In this document: positions 21,628-62,099 of the stretch, in pieces
Position numbering within the stretch: position 1 is the stretch's first letter
Layout: every line of letters begins with the position of its first letter
NCBI GenBank assembly: GCA_951406725.2
Contig: OX597830.1
Span: forward strand, 46,686,001 to 46,750,000
Source: Octopus vulgaris
Taxonomy: Eukaryota
Length of the DNA: 64,000 nt
Reading direction: 5' to 3'
Made by a program: the position numbers and the translations under genes
Notes under the pieces: generated by a model
The model's input: only the letters and a program-made list of their open reading frames with translations
Database searches by the model: none
Told to the model about the DNA's origin: nothing

Positions 21628-21680
<53 letters not shown>

Positions 21681-21795
21681 TATATTGGTACAGGACGTTA
21701 CAATAAGTAAACAACATGAAATTCGAAAACAAACTTTTGTATGCGAACGATGAAAAAAAAACAAATGGAAAACAAGACAAGTAACATAAAGAACG

Positions 21796-21858
21796 ACCCT
21801 TCATCAGTTGTCGGCTGTTTATCTACTCCACATTTCGAGCAATTCACGACAATATGTG
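21796..21858 (-). ncRNA. Candidate hammerhead ribozyme with non-canonical strand order, copy 1
   Basis: CACA-UA-UUGUCG-ugaauu-GCUC-GAAA-UGUG-gaguagauaaacagc-CGACAA-CUGAUGA-A-GGGU. Helix III CACAU/AUGUG, helix I UUGUCG/CGACAA, helix II GCUC/GGGU. Confidence 0.7.
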
Positions 21859-22264
21859 CCTTCCAGAAAACAGTTGCTTCCGCGAACCAAAATAAAATTT
21901 GGGATTTGCGGAGAGTCAAAATTGGTAACAAAAACAGGACAGTGGAGACATACAACAAACCAAACAAAAACAAACAGGGAGGACCGTTAGGTCAGACGAG
22001 ATAAGGTAGCGAACGCTGGAGCAATATTCTTTGACAAGAGAAAAGATAGGAGAGGAGACAGATAATAGTGCGTCTGGTCTGTGCGACAGACTGAAGGAAA
22101 AGAAAGATGACCAGGTGAGGAAAAGAAAGATGGACAAGGGTCACGTGTGAGCAACGAGAGAGAGTAAAGGAGGAAGCGGGAGACAGAGACAGATAGAAAA
22201 CAGTGAAGCGGAGAAAAAGAATTAGAGAAAGGAAGAGAGAGAAAACGAAAGGGGGAGAGAGAAA

Positions 22265-22298
<34 letters not shown>

Positions 22299-52331: not shown

Positions 52332-53095
52332 TATATATAATCTATGATATTGTAGTAGGTTTCAAGTTTATAACACCTTGATATCTCATGTTATCTCATT
52401 TTATATGCCTAAGACGTTTATTTTCTATTCTGGTTTTTATATATTTCTATACATTATATTTGTATCTATAATTTATTTTAAGCCGAAACATAATACGATC
52501 CTTGTACAAACGAAAGAACAAGAATGTCCTCTGGAACTTTTACCTTCCACCGGTGTTTGTAATCGATGGTGACATGTGCGATGATTTTGCGACTATCTTA
52601 TATTTTACAGAGAAATTGGAAGCCCCGAATGTAAGCCACCACTTTATGCATAATACAATATTTATAGTTCTCTATTTCTAACTCAAATTCTGTCCTCAAT
52701 AATTATAGATCTCTATTTCTACATGTAATTCTTTTTCTTCTCGTTCAGTTAATAACTATAACACGCATTCTTGTCTGTCTCTCGACAAAGCTTTTTTTCT
52801 CCAGCGCTCACCACTTCACCTCGTTAGGGTTAAACAGCCCTTACCGAATGCTTTCACTGTCCTATTTTTGTTAGCAGCTTTGACGTTCCACGTATCTCAA
52901 ATTTTATTTAATTTGCTTTGGTGGAGCAATTGCTTTGACGAAGACGCATCTTGTTGCACAGCTCGCAATGCGGAGTAGGTAAATCTGCCAACAATTGAAG
53001 GGTTGTTTTTTTATGCTGCCTTCGCGCTACAGTTCTCAATATATAATGGAAATTCTCCCAACCCAACCCAACCCGTGTGTAATAGTGACACCAAT

Positions 53096-61741: not shown

Positions 61742-61847
61742 CACACACACGCGCGAAAATGCACATTAAGTACAGGACATCACCGACGAGTGAAAAATAC
61801 GCAAGCACACGAGAGATAAGAAGAGGACAAAATAGCAAAGGAAGAGT

Positions 61848-61914
61848 AACTCCTCCTCAGTTGTCCACTCTTTATTTCTTCCTGTTTCGAGCTTTCAACG
61901 ACAAGACAAGAAAA
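61848..61914 (-). ncRNA. Candidate hammerhead ribozyme with non-canonical strand order, copy 2
   Basis: UUUUCUUG-UC-UUGUC-guugaa-AGCUC-GAAA-CAGGAAGA-aauaaagagug-GACAA-CUGAGGA-G-GAGUU. Helix III up to 9 bp, helix I 5 bp, helix II 5 bp, GUC triplet. Confidence 0.72.
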
Positions 61915-62099
61915 CTTCATAAGAAAGTAGCATCCAGTTGGCTGGACACCCATCCCCAAAAGAGACAGAGAAACGGGAATATATATATAAATGTATGTAT
62001 GTGTATGTATGTATTATTGTTGAAGGTGCACTTATTTGCAGACTCAATATGCAACATACCACGTCACTGCAATGACAGTCATCAACCATCTGAACAACA

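What the first reader, a model, noticed from the sequence alone, without database searches (positions are those of the whole stretch)
21796..21858. Diverged second copy of the A-C-B hammerhead shows compensatory changes
Seen: CACA-UA-UUGUCG-ugaauu-GCUC-GAAA-UGUG-(15 nt)-CGACAA-CUGAUGA-A-GGGU. Compared with the 61.9-kb copy, helix III differs in sequence (CACA/UGUG vs CUUG/CAGG) but stays paired. Helix II changes U-A to U-G, helix I gains a pair, N7 and H17 vary within permitted identities (AUA vs GUC), and the 6-nt I'-to-II' linker length and the extra purine after A9 are kept. Both copies also carry GTCCTGTAC 70-100 nt downstream (plus-strand GTACAGGAC at 21688 and 61770) and then run into a microsatellite. 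Inference: a diverged repeat family, probably Penelope-like pseudo-LTRs, was under selection for this fold.
Basis: partly seen in the sequence, partly recalled or inferred. Interest (0 to 1): 0.88.

Follow-up and report, generated by a model that had tools for sequence, protein, structure and literature searches.

The report
Rewired hammerhead ribozyme of Naiad retrotransposons
The flagged bases are a decayed copy of a repeat present in thousands of copies that carries all the core letters of a self-cutting hammerhead RNA in a rearranged order, and the same predicted fold sits at the end of many Naiad jumping genes, so it is likely the self-cutting RNA that these elements were reported to lack (cutting itself is untested).

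Summary
Observation confirmed: both loci hold hammerhead blocks in the non-circular S-G-C order (0 hits in 300 shuffles). They belong to two related non-coding repeat families (A, B; 59% alike; thousands of copies) ending in (TA)n, with Penelope-type tandems and tails. The 5' strand of stem II lies upstream of the cleavage block, and the bases after CUGANGA pair further upstream, so a helix and a hairpin are inserted between A9 and G10.1. This split layout recurs with different sequences in 11 of 66 Naiad 3' UTRs from metagenomes (antisense 0 of 66; shuffles 1 of 1320) and downstream of this genome's own Naiad RT remnants; 2 of 66 are type CSG. Craig et al. 2021 report that Naiads lack canonical hammerheads. 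Eckert et al. 2023 found SGC only in metatranscriptomes and assumed this junction cannot be split. Limits: cleavage is untested, A and B alone cannot separate the two stem II pairings, no A or B copy was found joined to an ORF, and the window copies are decayed. None of the earlier scan notes listed describes this.

The parts
21676..22265 (-). Copy 1: family A non-coding repeat unit, about 130 nt short at its 5' end, ending in (TA)n
   Evidence: 84% to an A unit over 618 columns
21912..21917 (-). Helix a, 5' strand (predicted to pair with 21795-21800); one C-to-U change gives a G-U pair in this copy
21880..21911 (-). Hairpin b, between helix a and stem II
   Evidence: double changes in 8 and 10 of 45 copies at two pairs
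21874..21879 (-). Stem II 5' strand (10.x), upstream of the cleavage block; G10.1 is A in this copy, G in the family majority
21868..21873 (-). Stem I/II interaction helix, 5' strand (pairs with 21815-21820)
   Evidence: double change in 7 of 45 copies
21847..21858 (-). S block: stem III 3' strand, U16.1, H17 = A at 21853 (predicted cut between 21853 and 21852), stem I strand
21828..21842 (-). G block: stem II 3' strand, GAAA (21833-21836), stem III 5' strand
21815..21820 (-). Interaction helix, 3' strand
21801..21813 (-). Stem I partner strand and CUGAUGA core (21801-21807)
21795..21800 (-).
21688..21696 (-). 3'-terminal 9-nt motif shared by families A and B, just before the (TA)n run
61756..61971 (-). 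Copy 2: family B unit with an internal deletion of about 250 nt that removed helix a 5' strand and hairpin b
   Evidence: two blast pieces against a B unit, 77-127 and 371-549
61847..61934 (-). Remaining ribozyme of copy 2: upstream stem II strand, interaction helix, S block (H17 = C at 61905), G block, CUGAGGA core
52720..53020 (+). Third, more decayed family A-like copy with a broken core; stem III still pairs, with other letters
   Evidence: 72% over 162 columns; read by eye

Best explanation
The two sites are decayed copies of non-coding repeats, likely spread by Naiad Penelope-like retrotransposons, whose 3' end is predicted to fold into a hammerhead ribozyme of a new wiring that would cut the element's tandem transcript into unit-length RNA. 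The order along the RNA is: helix a 5' strand, hairpin b, stem II 5' strand, interaction helix, cleavage block, GAAA block, interaction helix partner, stem I partner with CUGANGA, helix a 3' strand. Helix a closes the whole domain of about 100-145 nt, and A9 is not joined directly to G10.1. It can be read as a type CSG hammerhead with a helix and a hairpin inserted after A9 and the chain opened inside the inserted helix. Shown: the sequence blocks, the repeat families and their copy structure, the same layout with unrelated letters in Naiad 3' UTRs. Inferred: the fold, that A and B use the split stem II, self-cleavage, mobilisation of A and B by a Naiad enzyme, and the role in making unit-length RNA.
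For: Recurrence: 11 of 66 metagenomic Naiad 3' UTRs carry it on the sense strand with a 5-6 bp upstream stem II and a 0-1 bp adjacent stem II; antisense 0 of 66, shuffled 1 of 1320 at the same score. All six helices parse with different letters across families. The a+b junction is in the lowest-energy fold for 13 of 14 families, against 774 of 2100 shuffles and 65 of 182 cross-family swaps. Family A: upstream stem II -6.9 and helix a -10.2 kcal/mol, against -2.0 for the adjacent stem II; 50 cells with double changes against 26.5 +/- 3.8 shuffled. Family B: a variant in 8 of 30 copies breaks the adjacent stem II but fits the upstream one by moving a bulge. Naiad link: the same layout (family C) lies downstream of this genome's Naiad RT remnants in 12 of 30 loci plus 1 marginal, 7 of 20 more and 5 of 14 endonuclease loci. 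Carrier proteins have N-terminal GIY-YIG then RT. 12 of 14 split-bearing rows fall in one RT clade with the octopus-type Naiads (support 0.997). By eye it is also at the 3' end of published coral, jellyfish, hydrozoan, ctenophore and cephalopod Naiad consensus sequences.
Against: No cleavage data. In family B the adjacent stem II (5 bp, -4.0) scores as well as the upstream one (-3.2, bulged). A loose a+b test did not separate real from shuffled (13 of 14 against 1218 of 2800), a blind-hairpin test reached p<0.05 in only 8 of 14, and helix a is weak in family C. 53 of 66 Naiad UTRs show no hammerhead. No A or B unit was found joined in register to an RT in 50 RT loci. The descriptor itself required G10.1 and C11.1.
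Confidence: 0.78

Rival explanations
1. Families A and B are plain type SGC hammerheads as the first reader drew them, with stem II made from the bases right after CUGANGA; the upstream helices are an alternative or inhibitory fold, or a remnant of a split ancestor.
For: The adjacent pairing is possible in A (4 bp, 95% of cells paired) and B (5 bp, -4.0 kcal/mol). Window copy 2 has lost helix a 5' strand and hairpin b. Type SGC is known to cleave (PMC10085705).
Against: It is weaker than helix a, which uses the same bases; impossible in 11 of 11 metagenomic relatives and 2 bp in family C; broken by a variant in 8 of 30 B copies. Hairpin b and the interaction helix keep compensatory changes and sit flush against the upstream strand.
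Confidence: 0.13
2. The fold is real but does not cut: it is a structured 3' element derived from a hammerhead that the Naiad enzyme or a host protein binds.
For: No activity data. A break between A9 and G10.1 has no tested precedent in the papers read, and some core insertions impair cleavage (PMC3088659 passages).
Against: CUGANGA, CGAAA and NUH are all kept while helix letters turn over. Related Naiads hold type CSG hammerheads at the same place (2 of 66; six nematode consensus sequences by eye), a form that cleaves in vitro. One unpaired base is common at this junction in Penelope hammerheads (PMC4209133).
Confidence: 0.08
3. The ribozyme reading holds, but A and B are spread by a canonical Penelope-like element with a C-terminal endonuclease rather than by a Naiad (this rival concerns only the mobiliser).
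For: The genome has a young canonical family with intact 781-aa frames, whereas its Naiad frames are broken remnants. No A or B unit is joined to a Naiad RT.
Against: Among the loci examined the split ribozyme was seen with a coding region only in Naiads. The 781-aa family ends in an ordinary type I-like hammerhead (by eye). A copies are 7.4% from their majority, so they are old and need no enzyme that is active now.
Confidence: 0.2
4. The match is chance in a repeat-rich, AT-rich genome.
For: The core motifs are short.
Against: 0 of 300 window shuffles; 3865 exact 16-base hits against 11 for the reversed control; the recurrence and controls.
Confidence: 0.01

Closest known systems
Type SGC and type CSG non-circularly permuted hammerheads (Eckert et al. 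2023, PMC10085705)
   Same: S-G-C block order; a helix joining the far ends of stems I and II; full core. The strand order stem II 5', S, G is that of type CSG.
   Different: The paper assumes CUGAnGA and its adjacent paired bases cannot be separated; here a helix and hairpin separate A9 from G10.1 and stem II's 5' strand comes first. SGC was reported only from metatranscriptomes and CSG from few soil metagenome sequences, none in a genome of a known organism except one weak GCS case; here the motif is in an animal genome in thousands of copies, on retrotransposons.
Naiad Penelope-like elements (Craig et al. 2021, PMC8557442)
   Same: (TA)n targets, 5' truncation, inverted pieces, partial tandems and short tails; family C matches the Naiad_Ovul/Obim 3' end; the paper's 'HHR_core' and 'HHR_half_core' marks fall on several elements that parse as split-SGC or CSG.
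   Different: The paper finds no canonical hammerhead in Naiads and proposes no fold. Families A and B have no ORF and are 720-850 bp.
Type I hammerheads in pseudo-LTRs of canonical Penelope-like elements (Cervera and de la Pena 2014, PMC4209133)
   Same: Sense strand, near the 3' end, one per repeat unit; often one extra base after A9.
   Different: Those are C-G-S order, often minimal and thought to work as dimers; this one has 3-6 bp in stems I and III and is predicted to fold as a monomer with crossing helices.
Animal non-LTR retrozymes (bioRxiv 10.64898/2026.07.22.740005)
   Same: Non-coding hammerhead-bearing repeats proposed to derive from Penelope-like pseudo-LTRs.
   Different: A and B are mostly dispersed single units with a permuted, split ribozyme; circular RNA was not tested.
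Hammerhead variants with additional helices (Weinberg et al. 2015; cited in PMC13725137)
   Same: An extra helix in or beside the core has some precedent.
   Different: The paper is not held, so the position of its extra helix could not be compared; those variants are recalled, not seen, as circular permutations from bacteria or metagenomes.

Membership tests
Hammerhead ribozyme class | Core CUGANGA, GAAA and NUH | tested here: met
   Both window copies; all families and loci parsed; 19 of 30 A and 15 of 30 B copies keep every core base
Hammerhead ribozyme class | Stems I, II and III flanking the core, supported by compensatory change | tested here: met
   Different letters across 13 families, cross-family strands fully pair in only 17-38 of 156 swaps; double changes within family A for stems I and III
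Hammerhead ribozyme class | Stem I/stem II distal contact | tested here: met
   A 5-10 bp helix flush with both stems in the parses; double change in 7 of 45 A copies; predicted, not probed
Hammerhead ribozyme class | Self-cleavage after H17 | not testable with these tools
   Only contigs of runs guessed to be RNA were on offer
Type SGC (Eckert 2023) | Block order S, G, C | tested here: met
Type SGC (Eckert 2023) | Stem II strand directly after CUGANGA (unbroken C block), in the Naiad relatives | tested here: not met
   Adjacent stem II 0-1 bp in 11 of 11 metagenomic loci, 2 bp in family C
Type SGC (Eckert 2023) | Unbroken C block, in families A and B themselves | tested here: inconclusive
   Both pairings are possible; energy favours the split form in A, not in B; a B variant favours the split form
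Naiad Penelope-like element | ORF with N-terminal GIY-YIG and C-terminal RT, for families A and B | tested here: not met
   Units are complete at 720-850 bp between (TA)n runs; no A or B end joined in register to an RT in 50 RT loci
Naiad Penelope-like element | The same ORF, for other carriers of the ribozyme (family C, metagenomic loci) | tested here: met
Naiad Penelope-like element | (TA)n ends, 5' truncation, inverted pieces, partial tandems with a short tail | tested here: met
   head motif repeated within 250 nt past the 3' end in 7 of 30 A and 5 of 30 B loci
Non-LTR retrozyme | Tandem arrays that give circular RNA | not tested
   A few tandems seen (L007, L022); circles not examined

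The most novel reading that the evidence does not exclude
An active hammerhead ribozyme with a wiring outside the six permutations thought possible (core split between A9 and G10.1 by an inserted helix and hairpin, non-circular order) is the missing ribozyme of a large part of the Naiad retrotransposon clade across several animal phyla, with type CSG hammerheads and other ribozyme classes filling the same slot in other Naiads; it would be the first non-circularly permuted ribozyme family in animal genomes.
Probability: 0.7. Interest if true: 0.92.

Novelty: new variant of a known kind. Interest (0 to 1): 0.86.

Why it matters
It would explain a stated oddity, that Naiads alone among animal Penelope-like elements lack hammerheads while some keep 'half cores', and so support the view that 3' self-cleavage is part of how these elements copy themselves. 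It would move non-circularly permuted hammerheads from anonymous environmental RNA into animal genomes, give type CSG a biological home, and show that the catalytic core tolerates a break at A9/G10.1, which current search descriptors and Rfam models assume intact (no Rfam ribozyme hit in 18 loci that include six of these motifs). Constructs of 100-145 nt make it testable in one transcription assay.

Tried and rejected
Rfam on the window: the 150 listed of 262 hits are nearly all microsatellite matches, none a hammerhead; nothing relevant in 18 Naiad loci. GIY-YIG family search: the top loci are canonical C-terminal-endonuclease elements; A/B matches there are scattered fragments. Word-based protein search with the Naiad endonuclease piece: none of 50 candidates scored. 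Viral contigs: 74 pattern hits, none a relative. A loose pass/fail test for helix a plus hairpin b did not discriminate and was replaced. RNAalifold on A and B copies recovered little of the fold, as expected for crossing helices and decayed copies. Expression: no RNA holder listed; four contig sets laid on copy 1 show no pile-up of ends and cannot show strand or ends; no evidence either way. The lower divergence of core bases among copies (9 of 300 against 163 of 2638 in A) was not taken as selection on inserted copies, because the copies were picked by likeness to the query and subfamily differences inflate the flanks. Literature searches that found no description of this motif; the library lacks most subscription papers, and PMC4509812 and PMC5785218 are not held.

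Full report
OBSERVATION. The order is cleavage block, GAAA block, CUGANGA block, which Eckert et al. 2023 call type SGC (PMC10085705). A descriptor for that order finds 2 sites in the window (H17 at 21853 and 61905) and 0 in 300 local dinucleotide shuffles. The 3' motif at 21688 and 61770 is as described.

THE REPEATS. The window lies in a 2.8-Gb genome, inferred to be an octopus from exact matches to motifs of the published Naiad_Ovul consensus. Copy 1 belongs to family A (5187 first-look candidates, 40 scored, full-length hits 84-89% identical) and copy 2 to family B (938 candidates, 40 scored). A 16-base pattern over the core has 3865 exact hits against 11 for the reversed control, and nearly all of the first 100 listed are A-type. 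Whole A and B units are 58.8% identical over 611 columns. Units are about 720-850 bp and non-coding, with a sharp 3' end at (TA)n, ragged 5' ends, inverted pieces and some head-to-tail tandems. The head motif recurs just past the 3' end in 7 of 30 A and 5 of 30 B loci. These are the insertion features that Craig et al. 2021 give for Penelope-like elements. Copy 1 is 5'-truncated, copy 2 has an internal deletion, and a third decayed copy lies at 52720-53020.

THE FOLD IS NOT QUITE THE ONE DRAWN. The bases after A9 pair with a strand further upstream (helix a, -10.2). A hairpin b fills the gap between helix a and G10.1, and a further helix joins the far ends of stems I and II. Family B has the same layout, but its adjacent stem II (5 bp, -4.0) scores as well as the bulged upstream one (-3.2). 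A variant of the strand before GAAA in 8 of 30 B copies mismatches the adjacent pairing and fits the upstream one. I aligned 45 A copies (of 60 A-type loci, 47 span the domain, and 2 were left out as duplicates). 87.2% of cells pair, and 50 cells show double changes against 26.5 +/- 3.8 shuffled, mainly in hairpin b, the interaction helix and stems III and I. Helix a has none and stem II two single cases, and the count of pairs with any double change equals the shuffle mean. Family A alone therefore cannot decide between the two pairings.

RELATIVES DECIDE IT. Craig et al. state that Naiads lack canonical hammerheads but mark 'HHR_core' and 'HHR_half_core' in several, including Naiad_Ovul. A 14-base motif from that consensus has 554 hits against 14 in this genome (family C). 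Family C has the split layout and only a 2-bp adjacent stem II. It lies downstream, on the same strand, of Naiad RT remnants in 12 of 30 loci plus 1 marginal and 7 of 20 more divergent ones, and of 5 of 14 endonuclease remnants. A Naiad endonuclease piece from this genome retrieved full-length N-terminal-GIY-YIG proteins. Six of these, aligned, gave 254 relatives in metagenome contigs, of which the tool kept 79 loci. 13 have under 150 nt after the ORF. Of the other 66, 11 carry the split motif on the sense strand (upstream stem II 5-6 bp, adjacent 0-1 bp), 2 carry type CSG and 53 have no parse; the antisense strands give 0 of 66, and shuffles give 4 of 1320 with any parse and 1 at the same score. 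Helix letters differ between families: strands swapped between families pair fully over the 4 core-side positions in 38 (II), 27 (I), 17 (III) and 11 (interaction) of 156 swaps (own pairing is 13 of 13 by construction).

Helix a and hairpin b were tested three ways. A loose test did not discriminate (13 of 14 real, 78 of 182 cross, 1218 of 2800 shuffled). Choosing the hairpin blind gave p<0.05 in 8 of 14, and in 4 of the misses the chosen hairpin had swallowed the helix a strand. Folding the upstream and downstream flanks around a stub gave the junction in 13 of 14 families, against 774 of 2100 shuffles and 65 of 182 swaps, about 2e-5 by my arithmetic if the rows were independent, which they are not fully; family C is the miss, and the energy gain reached p<0.05 in 8 of 14. 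On an RT tree (84 of 85 rows, L274 dropped for coverage) 12 of 14 split-bearing rows fall in one clade of 27 with the octopus-type Naiads (support 0.997); L210 and L263 lie outside.

I also read by eye, without a script, the last 350-420 nt of 53 of the 54 consensus sequences in File S5 of PMC8557442. The split layout is clear in Amil, Aacu, Anas (near-identical corals), Obim and Ovul (near-identical), clear but cut at its 5' side in Movir-2 and Chem-3, and weaker in Bfor and Esco. Plain type CSG is clear in six nematode Naiads (Nbra-1 to -3, Hcon, Hpol, Asuum). The rest show other structures or nothing within the stretch displayed.

MECHANISM. Shown: blocks, families, copy structure, recurrence in Naiad 3' UTRs. 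Inferred: the strands fold into the standard three-helix core, with helix a and hairpin b projecting from the A9/G10.1 junction, a position that often carries one unpaired base in Penelope hammerheads (PMC4209133). Closing helix a with a loop would give a circle in CSG order, so the simplest history is CSG, then insertion after A9, then reopening inside the insert; this order of events is a proposal and was not tested on the tree. By analogy with the model for canonical elements, cleavage once per unit, about 150 nt before the 3' end, would release unit-length RNA from tandem or read-through transcripts for reverse transcription at (TA)n. A and B would ride on a Naiad enzyme. That link rests on the shared ribozyme and target only, since no A or B end was found in register with an RT in 50 loci (one rearranged A fragment in L329). 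The window copies are probably impaired: copy 1 has A at 10.1 and copy 2 lacks helix a and hairpin b. Among the 30 best matches of each family, 19 A and 15 B copies keep every core base, and A copies are 7.4% from their majority.

KNOWN AND NEW. Eckert et al. define six permutations on the assumption that CUGAnGA and its flanking paired bases are not separated, and report no SGC or CSG RNA in a genome of a known organism (their supplement has no hit for 'octopus'). The motif here meets the SGC order, but its relatives fail the unbroken-C-block criterion, so I file it as a new hammerhead variant and not as type SGC. A 2026 paper notes that variants with additional helices exist (PMC13725137). 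Its source, Weinberg et al. 2015, is not held, and I found no matching description in passages of Forgia et al. 2023 (one supplementary file unreadable). Searches returned no description of a Naiad ribozyme fold or of this wiring; subscription literature is largely outside the library. Earlier notes of this scan: none by the full word set or by place, and the eight listed concern phage RNAs.

PAPERS SEEN. PMC10085705: parts 1 and 3-6 of 8, supplement passages. PMC8557442: passages, the Naiad, Chlamys and Hydra sheets of File S1, File S2, File S5 ends; its bioRxiv version: passages. 10.64898/2026.07.22.740005: abstract, outline, passages (its supplements are closed and may bear on Naiad-linked retrozymes). 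PMC3088659, PMC4209133, PMC6765202, PMC6962438, PMC10162972, PMC13725137: passages (plus part of the reference list of the last). PMC4509812 and PMC5785218: not seen. Hammerhead numbering and the twister-like readings are from my own knowledge.

VERDICT. A real feature, and more unusual than first read: a predicted split-core, non-circularly permuted hammerhead carried by Naiad-type elements. Interest 0.86; new variant of a known kind; activity untested.

Noticed in passing
window 52720-53020 (+): A third, older family A-like copy: GAAA and the CUGA core are damaged, but stem III still pairs with different letters.
   Followed up: partly
L212 and L222, 3' UTR (about 820-1130 nt after the ORF); six nematode Naiads in File S5 of PMC8557442: Plain type CSG hammerheads in Naiad 3' UTRs; the type was known from few soil metagenome sequences.
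   Followed up: partly
L192, about 300-390 nt after the ORF; Naiad-1_Movir and Naiad_Mley ends in File S5: Twister-like 3' UTR motifs by eye (recalled pattern); Rfam gave no hit for L192. Suggests that Naiads swap ribozyme classes.
   Followed up: partly
L204 and L208, 3' UTR: A shared, highly paired RNA of about 170 nt with no Rfam hit, in the RT clade that mostly carries the split hammerhead; a candidate unknown ribozyme.
   Followed up: no
File S5 of PMC8557442, oyster, ark-shell, pearl-oyster and hemichordate Naiads: A conserved 3' UTR element closed by a CGGGUG/CACCUG-type helix, with no hammerhead core; unexplained. A pattern for it found 0 of 53 in the negative metagenomic UTRs.
   Followed up: partly
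L193, end of contig: The first two-thirds of a split hammerhead, with the CUGANGA block lost before a (TA)n run.
   Followed up: no
L091-L096: A young canonical Penelope-like family with intact 781-aa RT-GIY-YIG frames in many copies; L091 and L092 end in a type I-like hammerhead with a U3/A8 core (by eye).
   Followed up: partly
families A and B, bases after A9: Unlike in the other carriers, helix a's 3' strand can also pair with the strand before GAAA, so two folds compete; possibly a switch or an evolutionary intermediate.
   Followed up: partly
family A head, e.g. L022 about 1250-1270: A splice-donor-like GTAAGT near the 5' end of the unit, as in the intron-bearing pseudo-LTR of Penelope.
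   Followed up: no
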